From the sequence record NC_027378.1: DNA of 56,776 nucleotides, one strand, 5' to 3'. The translations under genes and the position numbers were made by a program. Shown one piece after another: positions 8,902 through 56,776 of the stretch. The stretch's first letter is position 1, and each line of letters opens with the position of its first letter. Source of the stretch: Escherichia phage Seurat. Under the pieces are notes generated by a model. That model was not told the origin of the DNA and made no database searches. It was given only the letters and a program-made list of their open reading frames with translations.

Positions 8902-9825
8902 ATGGCTACAGGTTCACGTTATTCGTGTTACTACGTCAAAGAAGATGTAAGCAACACAACTCCAGCGAACGCAAAGTTTACCCCGTTTCGTGTAACGAGT
9001 TCCGGTCTGGATATTAACATCGCGACGCTGGAGTCTGAAGAGCTGCGCGATGACGCAGAAACCGCAGACTTCCGTCTTGGCGCTCGAAGCGTTGAAGGTA
9101 CGGTAACAGGCGAAATGTCCTTCGGTACATTTGACGACCTCATTGCGGCAGCACTGCGCGGTGAATGGCAAGACAACGTCCTTAAAGGCGGTATTGTCCG
9201 TCAGTCATTTACTTTTGTAGACTATAACGCAGATCTGCCGTCAGGTAAATATACAATCTATCGTGGTTGTGAAGTTAATAGCATGACTTTCTCATTGTCT
9301 GCTGAAAACATGACAACAGTAGAGTTCGGTATTGTTGGTCGCTCGATGGAAATTGCGGAATCGCTCCCATCTGGTGCAACTATCAACGCGCGTACAACTA
9401 CTTCTCCGATGGACGGCTTCTCTGGTCGCTTGCTGGAAAACGACGAAGAGATCAGCGTTATTACGGAAATCGGTCTTACCGTTGAAAACGATATCGCTCC
9501 GCGCTTCGTTGTTGGCTCAAAGTTCTCCATTGAACCGTCTGCTGGTCGCCGTGCTGTAACTGGTACAGCTAACGTTTACTTCCTGGATAACAAGCTGCGT
9601 ATGAAGTATCTGGATGAAGTGGAAACTTCAATCAAGTTTGATCTGATTGACCCAAGCAATCCGGAACAAAAATACACTGTGGAAATCCCTCGCGTGAAAT
9701 TCACTGAAGCTCCACGTCCTATTGACGGTGAAGGGGATATCATGCTTAATATGGGCTACCGCGGATTGCTGGACCCAACAACCGCAAGTTCCATCAAAAT
9801 TACCCGCGTTTTAGCGGCAGAATAA
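8902..9825 (+). CDS. major tail (tube) protein (putative)
   Basis: 307 aa; immediately upstream of the G/GT chaperone and tape measure genes. Confidence 0.6.
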   Translation: MATGSRYSCYYVKEDVSNTTPANAKFTPFRVTSSGLDINIATLESEELRDDAETADFRLGARSVEGTVTGEMSFGTFDDLIAAALRGEWQDNVLKGGIVRQSFTFVDYNADLPSGKYTIYRGCEVNSMTFSLSAENMTTVEFGIVGRSMEIAESLPSGATINARTTTSPMDGFSGRLLENDEEISVITEIGLTVENDIAPRFVVGSKFSIEPSAGRRAVTGTANVYFLDNKLRMKYLDEVETSIKFDLIDPSNPEQKYTVEIPRVKFTEAPRPIDGEGDIMLNMGYRGLLDPTTASSIKITRVLAAE

Positions 9826-9834
9826 GGATAAGAG

Positions 9835-10242
9835 ATGACCGACACCAAAAAAGCCAAAGTTGCAGTAGCTAAAAGCTTTCGTGATTTTAAAACTGTGAGC
9901 CGGGCAAACGACCCGGCAAACACTAAGCCTATGAATGTGGTTATTCCTGGTGTAGGCGACACTGGCGAAAAACTCTACATTCGTAGCCGCTACTGCACTG
10001 AGTACCGTGAAGCTGAACTGAAAGCACAACGTCAATTGTTGGCACTTATGCAGGGTAAAGACGGGGAAGTAACGGATGCTATGAAGGAAGACATCCTTAC
10101 CCGTTCACTGTGTAACCTTGTAGCAGGTTGGACCTTTGATGAGCCGCCGACAGTTGACAACGTGTTTGAGTTCTTAACGGAGAACCCAACTGTTCGAGAA
10201 GACCTTAACGTATTTGCCGCTAAAGATAGTAATTTTTTCTAA
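9835..10242 (+). CDS. tail assembly chaperone G
   Basis: 135 aa between major tail and tape measure; ends ...AAT TTT TTC TAA with a slippery heptamer. Confidence 0.65.
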   Translation: MTDTKKAKVAVAKSFRDFKTVSRANDPANTKPMNVVIPGVGDTGEKLYIRSRYCTEYREAELKAQRQLLALMQGKDGEVTDAMKEDILTRSLCNLVAGWTFDEPPTVDNVFEFLTENPTVREDLNVFAAKDSNFF

Positions 10243-10640
10243 AAGCGCGCAGACAGTTAATTGATAAGAAGATCCTCCAATGGGAACTAAATAGTAAAGT
10301 CCCCGGCGGGGGATCTTCTTTATTATCGCAACTGCAAAAGGTTGAGGAACAGTCTGGTAAGACGCCACCTAAGCTTAAGGAATATCGGGAAAAGGAAATA
10401 CCGCTTTGCTTCGAATATCTATCTACTTTATTTGATGATATCTACACTGGAGGGGATTTTAGTTATACAGAATTGCACAGCTATCAAGTGACAATGGGCT
10501 TACATCTTCAACCGTACGAATGCGAAATACTGCGGCAGCTATGGCTTGAAAAGCGCGTGTCAGAAGCTGAACAAAATGCTAAACTCATGGAAAGTCAAAT
10601 GCAAAATCAAAATAAAGGTAGAAGAAAAAGGAGAAGATAA
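9835..10640 (+). CDS. tail assembly chaperone GT (frameshift fusion product)
   Basis: -1 frame after 10239 encodes LKARRQLIDKK...KGRRKRRR with no stop until the TAA that overlaps the tape measure ATG. Confidence 0.55.
10233..10239 (+). other. programmed -1 ribosomal frameshift site (slippery heptamer T_TTT_TTC)
   Basis: X_XXY_YYZ heptamer in the zero frame at the end of G; the -1 frame stays open for 133 codons to the TAA at 10638-10640. Confidence 0.6.
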
Positions 10641-13600
10641 TGGCCGAAACCGCTTCGCTAGTAATCAGAGTTGACGCGAGAGGGATTAGTACCGCGGACT
10701 CTATGTTGCGGAACTTAGCGCGTACAGGTGACACAGCGGAGCGCTCTGCTCAACGTGTTACCTCCAGCTATAAAACATTGTCTAACACATCTAACGAACT
10801 TGCAACTGTCACAAGTCGTTTGGATGCTGCAATTGTAGGAATGATTAGCGTTGACACTATTAGCCGTGTTATATCGCTGTCTGACTCCTGGACCATCCTT
10901 ACCAACAAACTTGAACTAGCTCGTATGGGTAATGAAACCGTTGCGGATTCCCAGCAACGTGTATTTGATATTGCTCAGCGGTCACGTACAAGCTTGGAAG
11001 CAACTGCAACTCTATATTCCCGTCTCCAGCGTGCAATGAAGAATACTGGTATGACGGGTATGGAGCTTGGACGTATCACGGAAACAATCAACAAAGCGAT
11101 GATTGTTTCCGGTGCAACGTCACATGAAGCAAGCGCTGCCCTTATTCAGTTTTCGCAAGCAATGGCGTCCGGTGTTCTGCGCGGGGACGAATTCCGATCT
11201 GTTGCAGAACAAGCACCACGCTTAACCCAAATCATGTCCGATGCGTTAGGTGTTACCATTGGACAATTGCGTGAAATGGCTTACAGCGGCAAGTTGAGCG
11301 CCGATGTGGTTATCAAATCGTTGTCTGGTGCTGCGGATACAATTGATAAAGAATTTAGCCGCACTATGCCAACGTTTAACCAGCAATGGACGGTTGCAAC
11401 AAACAACTTGACTAAGTTCATGGGCGAATCCCAAAAGACTCAAGGTGCGGTTGCTGCATTGGGACAGACGTTTGTTGCGTTATCCGAAAACTTAGGAACG
11501 GTTGTAACAGTTGGTTCAGCTTTAGCCACAGTAATTACCGCCCGTATCATTACGGCAATGCTTGCTAAGACTAAAGCGTCTATAGCTGCTGCAAAAGCAT
11601 CACAAATGGAAGCTGCACAAACTGCGGCAACTACGGCGGTGATGCAAAGCTCTATTGGCGTTACCGCACAGAAAGCGGCTGCGGATCGTGCTGCTTCGCT
11701 TGCCGCGTTACAGGTTGCTCGCGGGTCATTAGCGGTTGCTAAGGGTACGGCAGCGGAAGCGGGCGCACGTCTTGCCCTTATTAACGCTACCCGTGCGCAT
11801 TCTGCGGCAATTATGGCGGACGTACAAGCGCGGCAAGCGCTCAATGCTGCTCTTAATGCAACTGTACCAGCCGCAAGCCGGGCGGCTACAGCAATGAGCG
11901 TGCTGCGCGGTGCTATGGGGTTAATTGGTGGTCCTGTTGGTGTAGCAATGCTGGCAGCGGGTGCAATTTACTCCTATAAAGCGTCGCTGGAAGCAGGTCG
12001 TGCGGAAAACAATCAGTTTGCGGATAGTGTTGACAGTGTACGCGATAAATTGATGCAAATGACGGAAGCTCAGCTGGCAGCTAACGCGGTCAAAGCTAGA
12101 GCAATCCTTCCGGAACTTGAAGAGCAACTGAAGCGGGAGCAGAACGCTCTAAAATCTGCAACAGAAACACAGAAGTTCTATGAAGCACAATTAAAACGCC
12201 GTGCCGCGTCCGGTCGTGATACAGCTAGTGCTGAGAAGAACTTACAAATTGCAACGGATAACGTCAAGCTTGCTGCCGAGCGTGCTGAAGAAGCTCAACG
12301 CCGTTACAACAATGTCTTAGAAATGACAAGCCCTGCTATCGAGAAGATAATTCCGTTAGCTCGTCAGCTTGCAGCTGATATGAAAGCAGTGCTTAATATC
12401 AAATCCGGTCCGCTTATTGACGAGAAAGTGCTTGATCGTTTTAAAGGTCAGTTAGGTGATGTCAACCGTGAGATTGATGTTAACACGGTTAAGGGTGCTG
12501 GCAATGCTCGCCAAGCTGCAATCCTTAGTGGACTGTATCAGACGCTGGGCAAGGATGCGGATACATACGGAAGTCTTATTCGCAAAGTAGCTATGGGTCA
12601 GGACGTTAGCTCAGAGGCAACAAGCGAATCCGCTAAAGAGCTTGTTAAATATGCTCAAGATTTAGCGCAAGCTCTTGGCAAAAACTACGATCTTGAAGAA
12701 GCAGAGAGAAACCGGACTAAAGCTACAAAAGACGGTATTAAAGCAGAACAACAGAACGCCAAAGTTATTGACGATTTACGCAACAAGCTTAACGAAGTAA
12801 CCACAGGAGTTAAGGAAAACGCCAAAGCAAAAGCTCAAGCTGTGGCTTTAAACAAGCTCAATACGTCTGCAACTGCCGCGGAAAAAGCAGAAGTTATGAG
12901 TCTTGCTGCTGCGATTTATGAAGCGGAAGAAGCTCAAAAGAAACTGGACGAGCGTAAAAAGAATCGTAAAGTTGCTCAAGGTCTGTTAGATGAAGGTATG
13001 ACGGACTATGAAAAAATCGCGTATGAGCAAAATACTAAGATTGCGGATCTTAATGCAAAACAACGGGCGGATGATCTAGCTCACTATCAGCTTTACGAAG
13101 ACGCTAAGACGCAAGTCCTGAAGAAAGCGAGCATGGAAAGGGAAAATCTGGATAAAGTTCTTATGAACCGAATGATATCCTTTTCTCAGGAATCCTTAGG
13201 TATTATAATGGATGGGCTGTCACAGGCTGTAAGCCAGCAGAACTTCTTTTATAAAGCTATGTTTGCAGCACAGAAAGCAATGCAAATCCCATCAATCCTT
13301 GCCAACACGGAAACGGCAGCATCTGCGGCGCTTGCATGGGGTACACAGCAAGGAGGTGCTACGATGGGTGCAACAATGGCAGCTATAGTGAAAACTATGG
13401 GTTATGCGTCCGCTGCTACTGTGGGTGGCTTAGCGATCGCTGGTATGGCTCACGACGGTATTGATAACGTTCCGCGTGAAGGTACATGGCTGCTGGATAA
13501 GGGTGAACGTGTACTTAATGCTCCGTCTAATGACAAGTTAAATCGCTTCCTGGATAGCCAAGCTTCACAACAAGGTGGCGTGAATATGTCCGGTGGTGTT

Positions 13601-13756
13601 AGCATTGTTCAGTATATCACGGTGCAAGGAAATGGCGATGCAGCACTCACACAAGCCATGCAAAAAGCGGCCCGTGATGGCGCTGAGCAGGGATATAATA
13701 AAGTTCTTAATGACTTTGCATCCCGAGGAACAATTCGTAGAACTGCAATGGGGTAA
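10640..13756 (+). CDS. tail tape measure protein
   Basis: 1038 aa, Ala/Gln-rich coiled-coil sequence, follows G/GT. Confidence 0.9.
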   Translation: MAETASLVIRVDARGISTADSMLRNLARTGDTAERSAQRVTSSYKTLSNTSNELATVTSRLDAAIVGMISVDTISRVISLSDSWTILTNKLELARMGNETVADSQQRVFDIAQRSRTSLEATATLYSRLQRAMKNTGMTGMELGRITETINKAMIVSGATSHEASAALIQFSQAMASGVLRGDEFRSVAEQAPRLTQIMSDALGVTIGQLREMAYSGKLSADVVIKSLSGAADTIDKEFSRTMPTFNQQWTVATNNLTKFMGESQKTQGAVAALGQTFVALSENLGTVVTVGSALATVITARIITAMLAKTKASIAAAKASQMEAAQTAATTAVMQSSIGVTAQKAAADRAASLAALQVARGSLAVAKGTAAEAGARLALINATRAHSAAIMADVQARQALNAALNATVPAASRAATAMSVLRGAMGLIGGPVGVAMLAAGAIYSYKASLEAGRAENNQFADSVDSVRDKLMQMTEAQLAANAVKARAILPELEEQLKREQNALKSATETQKFYEAQLKRRAASGRDTASAEKNLQIATDNVKLAAERAEEAQRRYNNVLEMTSPAIEKIIPLARQLAADMKAVLNIKSGPLIDEKVLDRFKGQLGDVNREIDVNTVKGAGNARQAAILSGLYQTLGKDADTYGSLIRKVAMGQDVSSEATSESAKELVKYAQDLAQALGKNYDLEEAERNRTKATKDGIKAEQQNAKVIDDLRNKLNEVTTGVKENAKAKAQAVALNKLNTSATAAEKAEVMSLAAAIYEAEEAQKKLDERKKNRKVAQGLLDEGMTDYEKIAYEQNTKIADLNAKQRADDLAHYQLYEDAKTQVLKKASMERENLDKVLMNRMISFSQESLGIIMDGLSQAVSQQNFFYKAMFAAQKAMQIPSILANTETAASAALAWGTQQGGATMGATMAAIVKTMGYASAATVGGLAIAGMAHDGIDNVPREGTWLLDKGERVLNAPSNDKLNRFLDSQASQQGGVNMSGGVSIVQYITVQGNGDAALTQAMQKAARDGAEQGYNKVLNDFASRGTIRRTAMG

Positions 13757-18300: not shown

Positions 18301-18459
18301 AATGGACCTGCGATGGATGTAACCATACCTTTAGCAGTGAAAGGAAAGACAGCGTCGCGCGTAACAATAAGCGTTAAGGAGGAGTATACGAACGTCTATG
18401 GGAGCTACTTGCGCCCGTCTGTAATATTAATGACTCGCGGAACTGGTAGTTGGTCGTAA
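15337..18459 (+). CDS. tail tip/host specificity protein, lambda gpJ-like
   Basis: Clear similarity to lambda J (YYWYVRTINAFGSSAFVEV vs lambda YYFYIRSVNTVGKSAFVEA; KYVAGIQLGMEG vs HYVAGIGLSMED); track start is TTG at 15325, reset to the ATG at 15337 with RBS GGAGGG. Confidence 0.85.
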   Translation: MPPAIIGAAIALGASAAAAASIISATTALVIGIAATAAGALLTKTPNMNFDAYKGQQERKQVLRAATASRSVVYGTTVASGLLAFAEEEAGDQDEGEWMHLVVVLASHKLEGIETIWLGDDGIDWFGENATWEFHNDRQTVDPFMLKHCPSWKEDMIGKGIAWLRLSLKFDAEKFPSGLPNVKVLKKGRRIYDPRSGQTVFSDNAALVILDYFRTYLKRKDENINWDQFKEAANICDEFVTNADNTTERRYRINGEFEVDEAPAKILDAMLEACGGELTYIGGKHGLLVGAYYGPATMTLDESCIAGDIKIIPETSYKERTNTITGTFVDPKQTYAEADFPPVVVKEWVEKDGGEITQDMDFRFVTSEYQAQRLANIILRRKRVGRTIEVPCNMKGYKFRPGMYVNVTISNIEMKNVEMRVTKWSFDLKGGINLVLRQDFLEMWDDAIGKPMERPDLVDLPSGAIAQPQNLQYQVLQISDVVQGVLTWSNIGQVAYNRVAVRQGGTTVWTAQVPGQNVRVTGLLRGAYTAHVQAVAYSGAISPEAYLEFNIQAPPPPTSIEVQQGYFAISLIPKSADLANVSTQYDFWTSGETRLSSVSTDVVEREATRKGIGTTWTSEGLKNDHTYYWYVRTINAFGSSAFVEVAALCFTTATDLMPQIDSEFKKTETYKELTTEITGVKDGVTQLSQTVVETEQRLSQSVSNVQQSVITLDGVVQDQGVTINEQGQLIDAQGKLIDTQGKTIETVSATVQETSKAVVDLEGNVNAQWGAKVQVDSKGQKYVAGIQLGMEGSGGAVQSYFMVSANNFAIYNPTNSAAELAFAVKNGQVFMKATFIENGTIDSAKIANQIQSTNYANNSAGWMINKNGSAQFNNVTIRGTVYANNGSFTGTVNATSGKFKGTVEATSFVGDVANMCVIAESAIPNTQTTSSRTWTKTFKDSSGSTLSKDFVLLLSYSLTAYTSKQASRIIVTANIGGTSITRRIERAANGPAMDVTIPLAVKGKTASRVTISVKEEYTNVYGSYLRPSVILMTRGTGSWS

Positions 18460-18466
18460 TAAATAA

Positions 18467-18494
18467 TTAACCCCTCAAACGAGGGGTTAATTTT
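18467..18494. terminator. bidirectional intrinsic terminator between J and the convergent lipoprotein gene
   Basis: TTAACCCCTC-aaac-GAGGGGTTAA perfect 10-bp stem with T-rich flanks on both strands. Confidence 0.6.
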
Positions 18495-31260: not shown

Positions 31261-32073
31261 TTACAAGCCGTTCAGGGCTTCCGGTACTGGCATAGGTACG
31301 CGACCAGTTACACCATTAAACTTCTTCCAACGTGCATACTGAGTTTTAACGGTATCTTCGTTCAGACCGTGGCGACCTGCCAGATTCAGAACATAAGAGA
31401 TCGGAGCAGGCTGACCCAGCGTAGCGCTAATCTGATCCATCAGAGCCCAGGCACGACCGCAGGAAGTTTCAGGTTGCGGACGACGAACACCATTCTGTTC
31501 GGGCATACGGTTCGCTTCTTTCGCTTTTTCACGTTCAGCTTTTTCGCGGGCTTTTTCAGCAGCCTTTTCAGCCTGTTTAGCAGCGCGGATCTTGTCTTTG
31601 AAGCCTTTGATAGACGAATCCAGTTCGTCAACCATGCTCTGAGCAGCAGTTACTGCACCGGACAGATCTTCACCTTTGGATTTTTTAACAACTGCTTTCA
31701 GATCTTTCAGAGCATTCTTTAAATGCTTCAGCTGTTCGGAACCCTTAGATTCTGCTTCCGTAATCTGTTCAACAGTGCTTTCATCGGTAATACCGGATAA
31801 AGCAAGCTTCACGGTTTCAACTGCCTGGGAAAGAGTGGTAAATTTATTTTCCGCTTCAGTACGAATTTCAGCTTGTTTCTTTTCAGCGGCAGCTTTTTTC
31901 TCTGCTTCTTTTTTCTCTTTTGCTACGCGTGCAGCTTCAGCAGCAGCGGCTTTTTTAGCTTCTGCGTCGTTAGCAGTAGCTTCTTTCTTTGCAGGCTTAG
32001 CAGATTTTGCAGCGGCAGCAGCGGCTGCGGCAGCAGCGGCTTTCTTATCTTCAATATTACTCATTTTCTTCAC
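31261..32073 (-). CDS. Lys/Ala-rich histone H1-like protein with a C-terminal globular, possibly DNA-binding, domain
   Basis: N-terminal KKAAAAAAAAAAAKSAKPAKKE... low-complexity tract; C-terminal WALMDQISATLGQPAPISYVLNLAGRHGL. Confidence 0.5.
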   Translation of the reverse strand: MKKMSNIEDKKAAAAAAAAAAAKSAKPAKKEATANDAEAKKAAAAEAARVAKEKKEAEKKAAAEKKQAEIRTEAENKFTTLSQAVETVKLALSGITDESTVEQITEAESKGSEQLKHLKNALKDLKAVVKKSKGEDLSGAVTAAQSMVDELDSSIKGFKDKIRAAKQAEKAAEKAREKAEREKAKEANRMPEQNGVRRPQPETSCGRAWALMDQISATLGQPAPISYVLNLAGRHGLNEDTVKTQYARWKKFNGVTGRVPMPVPEALNGL

Positions 32074-32192
32074 TCCGAATTATTATGGGTTCGTTTGTTA
32101 CCAACGGGGTTAAATGTACCAAAGGATTTTGTGACACGCAACCCCTTACATAAACATTTTTTAAAAATATTTTTGATCAGGGTTAGAACTTA

Positions 32193-35698: not shown

Positions 35699-36580
35699 TT
35701 ACTGCTGCCACGGCGGGACTGCTGCTTGTGCTGGATGCGGTTCAGCTTGCTGCTGCGGCTGAGCTTGCTGCTGAGGCGCTGCTGCCTGACCCGGCTGTGC
35801 TACCTGCTGCGCCCACGGCTGCTGAGCTGCTTCCGGTGCTACTGGCTGTTGTACCGGAGCTTGCTGCACTGGCTGCTGTGGTGCTGCGTTTTGAGCAGGA
35901 TTATCCCACGGCTGCGGTGCTGCGTTCTGCCACGGTTGAGCTGCTGCGCCCTGCTGCGGTGCTGGTTGCTGCACAGGTTGCTGAACAGGCTGCTGTTGCT
36001 GTACCGGAGCTTGCTGCTGTACAGGTGCTTGCTGTTGCTGAGCAAACGGGTTAGCTGCTGGCTGCTGTGGCGCTGCGCCCGGGAAAGTTGGCTGCTGTGC
36101 TGGCGCACCTGCACCAAACGGGTTAGCTACTGCTGGAGCACCCATTGATGGAGCCTCTGCTGCTTTTTCTGCATATTTAACCGGATCGTTGATGTTAGCG
36201 TAACCGTTAGGCTCGTTGCTGTCTTCATAACCTTCCTGAGAACGAACTTTCAGACGCAGGTTCAGCGGAATGTTATGCAGCTGAGCAGGGGTATCCCAGC
36301 GAATTACACCAACCGCATGGGACAGAGCACCCAGTTGCTCGTAAGCGATGCGTACAGTATCTTCGTTGTCGTTAATGACGTTATAACGAGCAAAGATTTT
36401 ACGCCCTTTAGCAAAACCGTCAATGATGCTAAACGTTACCTGGATCGCCATACCGCCATTTTTGGTCGGTTTAAATTCAGATGCTTCAATTACTGCTTTA
36501 TACCAACCTTTCGGCAATGCGCCGTAAGAAGGTGCTTGATAGCTGCTCGCGTCAAAGTGGAAATTAGTTGGCATAGTCAT
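35699..36580 (-). CDS. putative ssDNA-binding protein with a Gln/Pro/Ala-rich disordered C-terminal tail
   Basis: Globular N-terminal about 150 aa, then about 140 aa of QQPVQQ/APQQ repeats; adjacent to the Sak4-like ATPase. Confidence 0.45.
   Translation of the reverse strand: MTMPTNFHFDASSYQAPSYGALPKGWYKAVIEASEFKPTKNGGMAIQVTFSIIDGFAKGRKIFARYNVINDNEDTVRIAYEQLGALSHAVGVIRWDTPAQLHNIPLNLRLKVRSQEGYEDSNEPNGYANINDPVKYAEKAAEAPSMGAPAVANPFGAGAPAQQPTFPGAAPQQPAANPFAQQQQAPVQQQAPVQQQQPVQQPVQQPAPQQGAAAQPWQNAAPQPWDNPAQNAAPQQPVQQAPVQQPVAPEAAQQPWAQQVAQPGQAAAPQQQAQPQQQAEPHPAQAAVPPWQQ
35700..36130. repeat. CAG/CTG-rich low-complexity coding repeat tract
   Basis: Repeated GCTGCTG/CTGCTGC units encoding the Q/P/A-rich tail; generates spurious ORFs in several frames. 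Confidence 0.7.
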
Positions 36581-56319: not shown

Positions 56320-56776
56320 CTTCTTCGGTTTTATAAAAACTAAACCGCGTCTGTTTATCGAGTATTTGATGATCGGCGCGGTTGTGTTTTTATGCGGGGT
56401 GGCTGCATACTTGTGGTCACAGAACGAGCTTAGCAAAACTAATTTAAATCATGCTGAGCAAAGACTAACTGTTGTAGAACAGGACAATGCAAAGCTGGGC
56501 GAAGCTGTTGTATTTCTTGCATCCCAACGGGAGAAGGATACTGAATCCTATCGAAAATTGGCTTCAGCAATTGAAAGTGAGCAACATAACCACAGGTTGC
56601 TTCAGGACAAATTAAAAGCACTGGAGAAAAGCAATGCCGACGTCAAAGCTTATCTTAATGAGCGTGTTCCTGATGATTTGCGCAGGCTGCTCGACGGAGA
56701 TACAACCTCCACCACCGCCGCAGATAGTGAAGATAAAACTTCCGGCTCATCTGTTGGTAGAATGTCGGGAAGTTGA
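56300..56776 (+). CDS. i-spanin (Rz-like)
   Basis: N-terminal TM helix then charged coiled-coil periplasmic domain; embedded +1 frame lipoprotein ORF. Confidence 0.65.
   Translation: MKTILNNFFGFIKTKPRLFIEYLMIGAVVFLCGVAAYLWSQNELSKTNLNHAEQRLTVVEQDNAKLGEAVVFLASQREKDTESYRKLASAIESEQHNHRLLQDKLKALEKSNADVKAYLNERVPDDLRRLLDGDTTSTTAADSEDKTSGSSVGRMSGS
56634..56776 (+). CDS. o-spanin (Rz1-like lipoprotein), 3'-truncated at the window end
   Basis: +1 frame inside the i-spanin gene; MPTSKLILMSVFLMICAGCST signal/lipobox-like start then PPPPPQ; no stop before the window end. Confidence 0.55.
   Translation, partial: MPTSKLILMSVFLMICAGCSTEIQPPPPPQIVKIKLPAHLLVECREV

What the first reader, a model, noticed from the sequence alone, without database searches (positions are those of the whole stretch)
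10233..10640. Programmed -1 frameshift producing the G/GT tail assembly chaperone
Seen: gene G ends ...AAT TTT TTC TAA. The heptamer T_TTT_TTC (10233-10239) is a canonical X_XXY_YYZ slippery site, and the -1 frame stays open for 133 codons exactly to the TAA overlapping the tape measure ATG. A 10-bp perfect inverted repeat (AAGAAGATCC ... GGATCTTCTT, about 10266-10320) lies downstream. Established: lambda-like siphoviruses make G and GT this way. The ORF track misses the T extension because it has no ATG.
Basis: partly seen in the sequence, partly recalled or inferred. Interest (0 to 1): 0.45.

Follow-up and report, generated by a model that had tools for sequence, protein, structure and literature searches.

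The report
Known tail-chaperone frameshift in phage Seurat
This is the ordinary ribosomal frameshift that tailed phages use to make a short and a long form of their tail assembly chaperone, and it is already annotated in the public record of this very phage, Escherichia phage Seurat.

Summary
G (9835-10242) ends AAT TTT TTC TAA. The heptamer T_TTT_TTC (10233-10239) is in the right phase. The -1 frame is closed by TAA at 10230-10232, then open to TAA 10638-10640, which overlaps the tape measure ATG at 10640. It has no ATG, GTG or TTG before 10473.

The extension matches Pfam Phage_TAC_18. An in-phase slippery heptamer sits in the G/T overlap in 13/13 GenBank relatives analysed and 51/63 metagenomic loci, changing between T_TTT_TTC/A, A_AAT_TTT and A_AAA_AAG. 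Substitutions in the start-less part fall on third codon positions of the T frame.

It is not new. The window is phage Seurat (56,776 bp, 44.6% GC), and my 268-aa fusion is an exact match to YP_009151957.1.

The inverted repeat is the core of a larger hairpin (10262-10325). That hairpin is more stable than synonymous-codon controls in all 10 enteric lineages tested. Its stable stem begins 22 nt after the heptamer, too far for a classical stimulator. Distant clades place their structure at +7. Clades with the displaced hairpin have the G stop, or a second overlapping heptamer, directly at the slip site. The hairpin's role here is unresolved.

The parts
8902..9825 (+). Major tail (tube) gene, upstream neighbour of G
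   Evidence: 307-aa ORF. The homologous gene is annotated as tail tube, tail subunit or major tail protein in relatives.
9835..10242 (+). Gene G, the short tail assembly (tape measure) chaperone, 135 aa
10230..10232 (+). TAA in the -1 frame, immediately 5' of the heptamer; closes the T frame upstream
   Evidence: Translation and frame analysis. It limits the G/T overlap to 10233-10242.
10233..10239 (+). Slippery heptamer T_TTT_TTC (the two tRNA-Phe can re-pair on UUU UUU in the -1 frame)
   Evidence: It is in phase in 13/13 GenBank relatives analysed. A canonical in-phase heptamer is present in 51/63 IMG/VR loci. UUN codons and homogeneous motifs are the shift-prone class in E. coli (PMC4066793).
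10240..10242 (+). 0-frame stop TAA of G, directly abutting the heptamer (candidate 'shifty stop')
   Evidence: An adjacent stop is also found in yong3, Nonagvirus and the Kpn2-P2 clade, but not in clades whose hairpin starts at +7.
10239..10640 (+). T extension read in the -1 frame (133 codons plus stop). GT = join(9835..10239, 10239..10640), 268 aa
   Evidence: Pfam PF23812 Phage_TAC_18 scores 38.8 bits against a cut-off of 27. Fused GT matches phrog_569 positions 11-256 of 256, E 4e-78. It is an exact match to YP_009151957.1 / AIW03876.1. In Skure, 21 of 25 substitutions in the start-less first 80 codons are at T-frame position 3.
10258..10260 (+). Second 0-frame TAA, embedded in the conserved Leu-Ile codons of T; probable ancestral G stop
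   Evidence: It is present at +19..+21 in every enteric-clade relative shown except Providencia PSTCR4, and is the actual G stop in K4PH164 and EC151. It lines up with the UGA/UAA stop inside the 5' strand of the stem in the A_AAT_TTT clade.
10262..10325 (+). Stem-loop.
   Evidence: MFE is -33.6 kcal/mol, z -5.3 against dinucleotide shuffles and z -4.0 against synonymous-codon permutations (0 of 300 as stable). No Rfam family matches.
10254..10334 (+). Whole rod-like domain, including weak outer pairs CAGUU 10254-10258 / AACUG 10330-10334
   Evidence: The centroid structures and the pairing-probability profile show the first 5-nt paired run at +15 in the window. The outer pair is broken in Skure.
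10195..10335 (+). Zone of suppressed synonymous variation among 9 Seuratviruses, covering the slip site, its 5' flank and the hairpin
   Evidence: Variable third positions are 2/36 in 10233-10340, against 33/99 in the rest of T (p 7e-4) and 69/132 in G (p 9e-8).
10628..10633 (+). AAGGAG Shine-Dalgarno sequence of the tape measure gene, 6 nt before its ATG
   Evidence: Read directly.
10640..13756 (+). Tape measure protein gene (1038 aa); its ATG overlaps the T stop (TAATG)
   Evidence: It is annotated as tape measure in all relatives.

Best explanation
Most ribosomes translating G decode AAU UUU UUC and terminate at UAA 10240-10242, releasing the 135-aa chaperone G.

A minority slip back one nucleotide on U_UUU_UUC (10233-10239). 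This happens either by tandem re-pairing of the P- and A-site tRNA-Phe, or by P-site slippage while the adjacent UAA waits in the A site. Both routes give the same protein. These ribosomes read CUA at 10239 and continue for 133 codons to UAA 10638-10640. The product is the 268-aa fusion GT, with junction ...AAKDSNFF-LKARRQ...

By analogy with lambda gpG/gpGT, the G part of both proteins coats the tape measure protein, and the T part recruits the tail tube protein. The slip frequency therefore sets the G:GT ratio.

Shown here:
- the sequence layout;
- coding selection on the start-less T frame;
- family membership of T;
- conservation of an in-phase slip site across the family;
- identity to the annotated Seurat GT protein.

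Inferred:
- that slippage occurs and at what frequency;
- the chaperone roles;
- any contribution of the adjacent stop and of the hairpin 22 nt downstream.
For: - Layout and frames. The G/T overlap is only 10 nt, bounded by TAA in each frame.
- Only this in-phase heptamer in the window opens a long -1 ORF past the stop.
- T matches PF23812 Phage_TAC_18 above the curated cut-off.
- G plus T match the single profile phrog_569 end to end, E 4e-78.
- tblastn hits and the T alignment start at the invariant FF of the heptamer, down to 23-30% identity.
- The heptamer is in phase in 13/13 GenBank relatives analysed, while the position of the G stop varies from +1 to about +100.
- All 63 IMG/VR loci keep the G-then-T(-1) layout. 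51 have a canonical in-phase heptamer, with turnover between T_TTT_TTC/A, A_AAT_TTT and A_AAA_AAG.
- Purifying selection acts in the T frame on the start-less 80 codons.
- Synonymous variation is suppressed around the site.
- A joined CDS exists in SA126VB. My fusion is an exact match to Seurat YP_009151957.1, held on a 56,776-bp contig.
- The window has the Seurat length and GC content.
- Literature: lambda G/GT in PMC5009743; shiftiness of UUY codons and homogeneous motifs in PMC4066793.
Against: - There is no experimental evidence for this phage or genus. No paper I found reports a GT band or a junction peptide.
- There is no stimulator at the canonical distance. The stable stem starts 22 nt after the heptamer and the weak outer pairs start 14 nt after it. 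I saw no Shine-Dalgarno-like motif in the 20 nt upstream.
- Heptamers without stimulators gave only 2-10 times a 0.055% background in an E. coli reporter (PMC4066793). The efficiency here could therefore be very low.
- G's match to Pfam Phage_TAC_4 is below threshold, and its fold match to the HK97 chaperone is weak.
Confidence: 0.93

Rival explanations
1. Transcriptional slippage. RNA polymerase adds one extra U on the T6 run (10233-10238). A subset of mRNAs then encodes GT in a single frame, with no ribosomal slip.
For: A homopolymeric T run is present, with 6 T in the window and 7 in many relatives. Inserting one U would give the -1 frame. The review and the motif study both note that homopolymeric heptamers can undergo polymerase slippage (PMC5009743; PMC4066793).
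Against: The phase of the run relative to the G frame is conserved in 13/13 relatives, which polymerase slippage does not require. A large clade replaces the run by A_AAT_TTT, with only 4 T and 3-5 A. That is too short for polymerase slippage but is a classical tandem-slip heptamer. From my own knowledge, not tested here, six T is below the run lengths at which E. coli RNA polymerase slippage has been documented.
Confidence: 0.03
2. T is made on its own by internal initiation, for example at TTG 10473 or ATG 10494 as several GenBank records annotate. No G-T fusion exists.
For: Several records annotate a 48-aa or 70-aa ORF at the 3' end of T. Records of more distant relatives annotate T-frame ORFs starting about 50 nt after G.
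Against: The window has no start codon in the T frame for 80 codons. Those codons are nevertheless under purifying selection in that frame and are homologous across the family from the first FF. The Phage_TAC_18 match spans T residues 37-106 and would be cut by a start at residue 81 or 88. I saw no Shine-Dalgarno motif before 10473 or 10494. The codon used as a TTG start in Nonagvirus annotations is CTA in the window.
Confidence: 0.02
3. The hairpin 10262-10325 is not part of the frameshift signal. It would serve another mRNA-level role in the sparsely translated T region: a partial terminator, a processing or stability element, or protection against Rho or RNase. This concerns the hairpin only and is compatible with the frameshift itself.
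For: The 22-nt spacer is far outside the 6-8 nt window in which stem-loops stimulate -1 frameshifting (PMC3458567). The terminator scan flags GTCCCCGGCGGGGGAT followed by CTTCTTTATT at 10299-10314. The structure is still under selection in every enteric lineage tested. It lies just after the point where most ribosomes leave the mRNA.
Against: Terminator-like hits in the region are not above the shuffle expectation (3 against 1.7 +/- 1.5). A U-tract is absent in the Nonagvirus, Kpn2-P2 and K4PH164 clades. In two other clades the corresponding structure starts at +7, the stimulator position. That argues the ancestral role was frameshift stimulation. The zone of suppressed synonymous change is continuous from the slip site to the end of the hairpin.
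Confidence: 0.4

Closest known systems
Bacteriophage lambda gpG/gpGT tail assembly chaperones (Levin et al. 1993; Xu, Hendrix and Duda 2004, 2013, 2014, as summarised in PMC5009743)
   Same: Both have two overlapping ORFs between the major tail gene and the tape measure gene. The second ORF is in the -1 frame and has no start. A heptamer sits near the end of G. In both, a short product and a fusion product are expected, with the ratio set by the slip frequency.
   Different: The slip site is T_TTT_TTC rather than G_GGA_AAG. I detected no sequence similarity to lambda G or T; membership is through Pfam Phage_TAC_18 and PHROG 569/313. The 0-frame stop abuts the heptamer. A conserved hairpin lies 22 nt downstream.
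Annotated GT of Escherichia phage Seurat (YP_009151957.1 / AIW03876.1) and of vB_EcoS_SA126VB (UIU26730.1)
   Same: The Seurat protein is identical in sequence, including the junction. The window is the Seurat genome.
   Different: Nothing differs. This is the same feature. Most other Seuratvirus and Nonagvirus records lack the joined CDS.
HK97 tail assembly chaperone structure (PDB 2OB9)
Canonical -1 frameshift cassettes with a stem-loop 6-8 nt downstream (HIV-1 gag-pol U_UUU_UUA, E. coli dnaX, IS3/IS911)
   Same: The heptamer is of the U6N type, and a stable downstream stem-loop is under selection. In the A_AAT_TTT and GC-rich clades of this same chaperone family, the structure starts at +7.
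   Different: In the window the stable stem starts at +23. I saw no upstream Shine-Dalgarno-like stimulator.
'Shifty stop' contexts, meaning a stop codon directly 3' of a slippery run (Weiss et al. 1987; recalled from memory, not retrieved)
   Same: UAA follows U_UUU_UUC with no spacer.
   Different: This is untested here. The adjacency is clade-specific rather than family-wide.

Membership tests
G/GT-type tail assembly chaperone expressed by programmed -1 frameshift (lambda paradigm) | Two overlapping ORFs located between the major tail (tube) gene and the tape measure gene | tested here: met
   Tube gene 8902-9825, G 9835-10242, T to 10640, tape measure gene 10640-13756.
G/GT-type tail assembly chaperone expressed by programmed -1 frameshift (lambda paradigm) | Second ORF in the -1 frame, without its own start, overlapping the end of G at a slippery sequence in phase | tested here: met
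   The overlap is 10 nt and contains only T_TTT_TTC. There is no start codon before 10473.
G/GT-type tail assembly chaperone expressed by programmed -1 frameshift (lambda paradigm) | Arrangement and slip site conserved in relatives | tested here: met
   13/13 GenBank relatives. All 63 IMG/VR loci keep the layout, and 51 have a canonical heptamer.
G/GT-type tail assembly chaperone expressed by programmed -1 frameshift (lambda paradigm) | Sequence membership in tail assembly chaperone families | tested here: met
   T matches PF23812 Phage_TAC_18 at 38.8 bits against a cut-off of 27. G matches phrog_313 'Tail assembly chaperone' at E 4.6e-11. G against Pfam Phage_TAC_4 reaches only 14.9 bits against 21.1, which is below the cut-off.
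G/GT-type tail assembly chaperone expressed by programmed -1 frameshift (lambda paradigm) | G adopts the fold of solved tail assembly chaperones | tested here: inconclusive
G/GT-type tail assembly chaperone expressed by programmed -1 frameshift (lambda paradigm) | Both G and GT are made, at a fixed ratio; both are needed for tail assembly and absent from virions | not testable with these tools
   This needs protein analysis of infected cells and genetics. I found no such data for Seuratvirus in the paper searches.
Canonical bipartite -1 frameshift signal (heptamer plus stimulator) | X_XXY_YYZ heptamer in the 0-frame phase | tested here: met
   T_TTT_TTC at 10233-10239.
Canonical bipartite -1 frameshift signal (heptamer plus stimulator) | Stable downstream structure starting about 5-9 nt after the heptamer | tested here: not met
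   In the window the stable stem starts at +23 and the weak outer pairs at +15. Mean pairing probability in the enteric clade is 0.07-0.56 up to +21. It is 0.99 and 0.78 at +7..+9 in the two other clades.
Canonical bipartite -1 frameshift signal (heptamer plus stimulator) | Upstream Shine-Dalgarno-like stimulator (dnaX / IS type) | tested here: not met
   There is no GGAG, GAGG or AGGA in 10210-10232 (read). Nothing of that kind is conserved in relatives.
Intrinsic (Rho-independent) terminator | G+C-rich stem followed by a U-tract, more than chance, and conserved | tested here: inconclusive
   The scan flags 10299-10314 followed by CTTCTTTATT, but 3 hits against 1.7 +/- 1.5 in shuffles. A U-tract is absent in the Nonagvirus, Kpn2-P2 and K4PH164 clades.
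Described RNA families (Rfam 15) | Match reaching a family's gathering score | tested here: not met
   Only generic hairpin-like hits appear, far below the gathering scores.

The most novel reading that the evidence does not exclude
The downstream stem-loop may be a family-wide frameshift stimulator that has moved in the enteric Queuovirinae, including Seurat. In other clades of this chaperone family it starts at +7. In the enteric clade it starts 15-25 nt further away, while the G stop, or a second overlapping heptamer, moved right up to the slip site. Yet the displaced hairpin is still kept by selection. Either it modulates -1 frameshifting from a non-canonical distance, or it has taken on a different role in the poorly translated T region. 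That would be a natural case of one stimulator type being exchanged for another.
Probability: 0.3. Interest if true: 0.4.

Novelty: already known. Interest (0 to 1): 0.15.

Why it matters
For the frameshift itself the value is small, because it confirms an existing annotation. Two things are practically useful.

- Most Seuratvirus and Nonagvirus GenBank and RefSeq records either miss the joined CDS or annotate truncated stubs. They also label G as 'tail length tape measure protein'. These annotations could be corrected.
- The family offers a natural series in which slip motif, stop position and hairpin distance co-vary: T_TTT_TTC, T_TTT_TTA_AAG or A_AAT_TTT; stop at +1, +10 or far; hairpin at +7 or +22 and beyond. 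That series could be used to test how stops and structures trade off in bacterial -1 frameshifting.

Tried and rejected
- **Seurat record:** fetching it by accession (KM236243, NC_027378) failed because it is not in the phage collection. I established identity through exact protein look-up and genome length and GC instead.
- **Papers:** a search for TTTTTTC plus frameshift plus tape measure found nothing. The Seurat, Vid5 and EC151 papers do not mention a frameshift.
- **PDB by sequence:** no relevant hit.
- **Foldseek against PDB:** the HK97 chaperone came top but was not significant.
- **Rfam:** no family matched.
- **Strand of the structure:** I tried to tell which strand carries it by comparing sense and antisense folding. 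The energies are about equal, so this was not informative.
- **RNAalifold on the 14 GC-rich and other T_TTT_TTC loci:** no consensus structure, because the helix partners differ between sequences. The +7 onset in that clade therefore rests on single-sequence partition functions only.
- **Covariation in the Nonagvirus/Kpn2-P2 stem:** two compensatory pairs, but effectively one event between two subclades, so the evidence is modest.
- **A helix bracketing the slip site** (10213-10221 / 10244-10253) appears in one fold. I rejected it as a stimulator because its 5' strand would be inside the ribosome at the moment of slippage. It may still contribute to the suppressed synonymous variation upstream of the site.
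- **Pseudoknot or long-range pairing of the spacer** (10245-10256) with the hairpin loop or with 10350-10356: I checked this by eye and found only 3-5 bp, so I did not pursue it.
- **Intrinsic terminator reading of the hairpin:** not above chance and not conserved.

Full report
**What is in the sequence**

The ORF at 9835-10242 (135 aa) ends AAT TTT TTC TAA. T_TTT_TTC occupies 10233-10239 in X_XXY_YYZ phase. Translating the -1 frame gives a TAA at 10230-10232, immediately before the heptamer. The frame is then open through 10637, with TAA at 10638-10640. That stop shares its last base with the ATG of the 1038-aa tape measure ORF at 10640.

The two frames therefore overlap for only 10 nt, so a shift into T can only happen on the heptamer. 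The T frame has no ATG, GTG or TTG until TTG 10473.

**Is it more than chance?**

In a crude gene set of the window there are 65 in-phase X_XXY_YYZ heptamers. Only the one at 10233 opens a -1 ORF that runs far (398 nt) beyond the 0-frame stop. The median -1 open run from any codon is 6 codons, and runs of 135 or more occur at 0.56% of positions.

**What the window is**

The 2-kb region is 93-97% identical to about 30 Seuratvirus genomes. An exact-sequence look-up gave the decisive result. G is identical to YP_009151958.1. The 268-aa fusion I derived by shifting at the heptamer (...AAKDSNFF-LKARRQ...) is identical to AIW03876.1 / YP_009151957.1 of Escherichia phage Seurat, which UniRef names 'Tape measure chaperone'. 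It is held on a contig of 56,776 bp.

The genome announcement gives Seurat 56,776 bp and 44.6% G+C (PMC4342423). The window has 56,776 bases and GC 0.446. The window is the Seurat genome, and the frameshift product is already annotated in it.

A joined CDS is also present in vB_EcoS_SA126VB. Most other records of the genus and of Nonagvirus lack it. They annotate a 48-aa stub starting at the ATG equivalent to window 10494, or TTG-started ORFs.

**Evidence that T is coding and fused to G**

- T matches Pfam PF23812 (Phage_TAC_18) at 38.8 bits against a curated cut-off of 27, over T residues 37-106.
- G matches positions 11-126 of the 256-position profile phrog_569. T matches positions 129-256. 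The fusion matches 11-256 at E 4e-78. G also hits phrog_313 'Tail assembly chaperone' at E 4.6e-11.
- tblastn with T finds 85 phage records, and for most of the relatives listed the alignment starts at query residue 1, the first Phe of the heptamer. In an alignment of 11 diverse T sequences (23-52% identity to the window), the first two columns are invariant FF.
- Among Seuratviruses, substitutions in the 80 start-less codons fall on T-frame third positions. In Skure, 21 of 25 do, giving 5 amino-acid changes in the T frame against 20-21 in the other two frames.

**Conservation of the slip site**

In 13 of 13 GenBank relatives analysed, an in-phase T_TTT_TTC or T_TTT_TTA lies in the G/T overlap. 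These range from Seuratvirus to Pseudomonas phages with 60% GC. Meanwhile the position of the G stop varies from directly adjacent to about 100 nt downstream.

A scan of IMG/VR gave 63 further loci, all with the G-then-T(-1) layout. Of these, 51 have a canonical in-phase heptamer: T_TTT_TTC/A in 32, A_AAT_TTT in 20 (two loci carry both), and A_AAA_AAG in 1. The other 12 have near-motifs such as C_AAT_TTT.

Turnover of the motif with the phase retained is the signature of ribosomal tandem slippage. It also argues against RNA polymerase slippage, since A_AAT_TTT has no long homopolymer run. UUN codons, and motifs in which X and Y are both pyrimidines, are among the more shift-prone classes in E. 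coli (PMC4066793).

**Fold of G**

**The inverted repeat: structure and selection**

The repeat is the core of a 17-bp bulged stem (10262-10278 / 10308-10325) with further inner pairs. The MFE of 10240-10335 is -33.6 kcal/mol, z -5.3. Weak outer pairs, 10254-10258 with 10330-10334, extend it.

It ranks 118th of 7085 96-nt windows of the genome by raw energy, despite only 42% GC. The genome has 11 perfect inverted repeats of 10 bp or more, against 2.6 expected.

In all 10 enteric lineages tested, the native sequence folds more stably than permutations that keep the protein and the codon composition. The z-scores run from -1.7 to -4.0, and 0-18 of 300 permutations were as stable.

The arms differ in sequence, and the helix register shifts by 1-5 nt between subclades. 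Between Nonagvirus and the Kpn2-P2 clade, two pairs changed on both sides (C-G to U-A, and A-U to G-C). Pairing holds in 96.9% of cells, against 30-62% when the partner strand is slid.

Among nine Seuratviruses, synonymous variation collapses from about 10195 to about 10335. Variable third positions are 2 of 36 in 10233-10340, against 33 of 99 in the rest of T (p 7e-4) and 69 of 132 in G (p 9e-8). A locally recent recombination event could mimic this, so it is supportive rather than conclusive.

**The inverted repeat: position relative to the slip site**

The stable stem starts 22 nt after the heptamer. Stem-loop stimulators work in a narrow window of about 6-8 nt (PMC3458567).

The family comparison is informative here. 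In the A_AAT_TTT clade, RNAalifold finds a 7-bp closing helix that starts at column 14, which is +7. It has no broken pairs in 77 cells, and G-C alternates with A-U (6 against 5 sequences) at one pair. The G stop, UGA or UAA, lies inside its 5' strand.

Partition-function profiles show the following:

| Clade | Mean pairing probability |
|---|---|
| A_AAT_TTT | rises from 0.23 at +4..+6 to 0.99 at +7..+9 |
| GC-rich and other T_TTT_TTC | rises from 0.25 at +4..+6 to 0.78 at +7..+9 |
| Enteric (includes the window) | 0.07-0.56 up to +21; above 0.9 only at +34..+39 |

The clades with the displaced hairpin are the ones in which the G stop sits at or within a few nucleotides of the heptamer: directly after it in Seuratvirus, yong3, Nonagvirus and Kpn2-P2, and one codon later in Vid5. 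In the K4PH164 clade a second heptamer overlaps the first instead (T_TTT_TTA_AAG).

A 0-frame TAA at 10258-10260 is embedded in conserved Leu-Ile codons. It is kept in every enteric-clade relative except Providencia PSTCR4, and looks like the ancestral G stop.

I read this as follows. The hairpin descends from a frameshift stimulator. Whether it still acts on frameshifting in Seurat, or now serves another mRNA-level purpose, cannot be decided from sequence.

An intrinsic-terminator reading is not supported. Hits are not above shuffles, and the U-tract is not conserved. No Rfam family matches.

**Rivals**

- Transcriptional slippage is made unlikely by the phase conservation and by the A_AAT_TTT clade.
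- Independent initiation of T is made unlikely by three things: the absence of start codons, selection on the start-less part, and truncation of the TAC_18 domain by the annotated stubs.
- P-site-only slippage at the adjacent UAA is a variant of the main mechanism and gives the same protein.

**Verdict**

The feature is an ordinary member of the G/GT class and is already annotated in the source record. The only part that goes beyond what is recorded is the comparative picture of the downstream structure and the adjacent stop. It is modestly interesting and untested.

Noticed in passing
window 1-56776: The window is the complete genome of Escherichia phage Seurat (KM236243). It has the same length (56,776 bp) and GC content (44.6%), and the G and GT proteins match exactly.
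   Followed up: yes
window 10258-10260: There is a second 0-frame TAA 18 nt after the G stop, inside conserved Leu-Ile codons of T. It is kept in every enteric-clade relative examined except Providencia PSTCR4, and is the real G stop in K4PH164 and EC151. In the A_AAT_TTT clade the homologous UGA/UAA lies inside the stem.
   Followed up: partly
window 10512-10640: A second zone of very low synonymous variation among Seuratviruses (1-3 variable third positions per 15 codons). It covers the 3' end of T and the tape measure ribosome-binding site (AAGGAG 10628-10633).
   Followed up: no
window 10213-10221 with 10244-10253: One fold predicts a 9-bp helix with one bulge that brackets the slippery heptamer in its loop. 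The upstream part of the zone of low synonymous variation (from about 10195) covers its 5' strand. A compatible change (C to U, giving G-U) is seen in yong3.
   Followed up: partly
L001, L002, L003, L006, L007, L008, L083, L084, L087 (GenBank/RefSeq relatives): Most Seuratvirus and Nonagvirus records lack the joined GT CDS. They annotate 48-70-aa stubs or TTG-started ORFs instead. RefSeq and phrog_569 label the chaperone G as 'tail length tape measure protein', which is a misnomer.
   Followed up: partly
window 4769, 7056, 11079, 18465, 21814, 35651, 43172, 46937, 52530, 54479: There are ten further perfect inverted repeats of 10-12 bp with short loops, making 11 in all against 2.6 in shuffles. 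The one at 18465-18492 lies just after the 1044-aa ORF that ends at 18459, so it looks like a terminator.
   Followed up: no
window 35705-35930 and about 56329-56424: These are the most stable 96-nt folding windows of the genome. One is a GC-rich (60-69%) stretch inside the minus-strand ORF 35699-36580 (MFE to -46). The other is a strong structure near the right end, at only 43% GC (-41.3).
   Followed up: no
window 31676-32113: This plus-strand ORF carries four in-phase T-rich heptamers, and its -1 frame stays open for about 80-118 codons. It is probably an off-frame shadow of another gene rather than a second recoding site.
   Followed up: no
L019 (Aeromonas phage AP1, MT713136, 240650-240919): A T-like tblastn hit (35% identity over 77% of T) occurs in a 254-kb Straboviridae genome. 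It lies antisense to an annotated hypothetical gene.
   Followed up: no
L010, L012, L020-L024 (K4PH164 / EC151 clade), heptamer region: The slip site here is two overlapping heptamers, T_TTT_TTA and T_TTA_AAG (or T_TTA_AAC). The G stop is 7-21 nt downstream rather than adjacent.
   Followed up: partly
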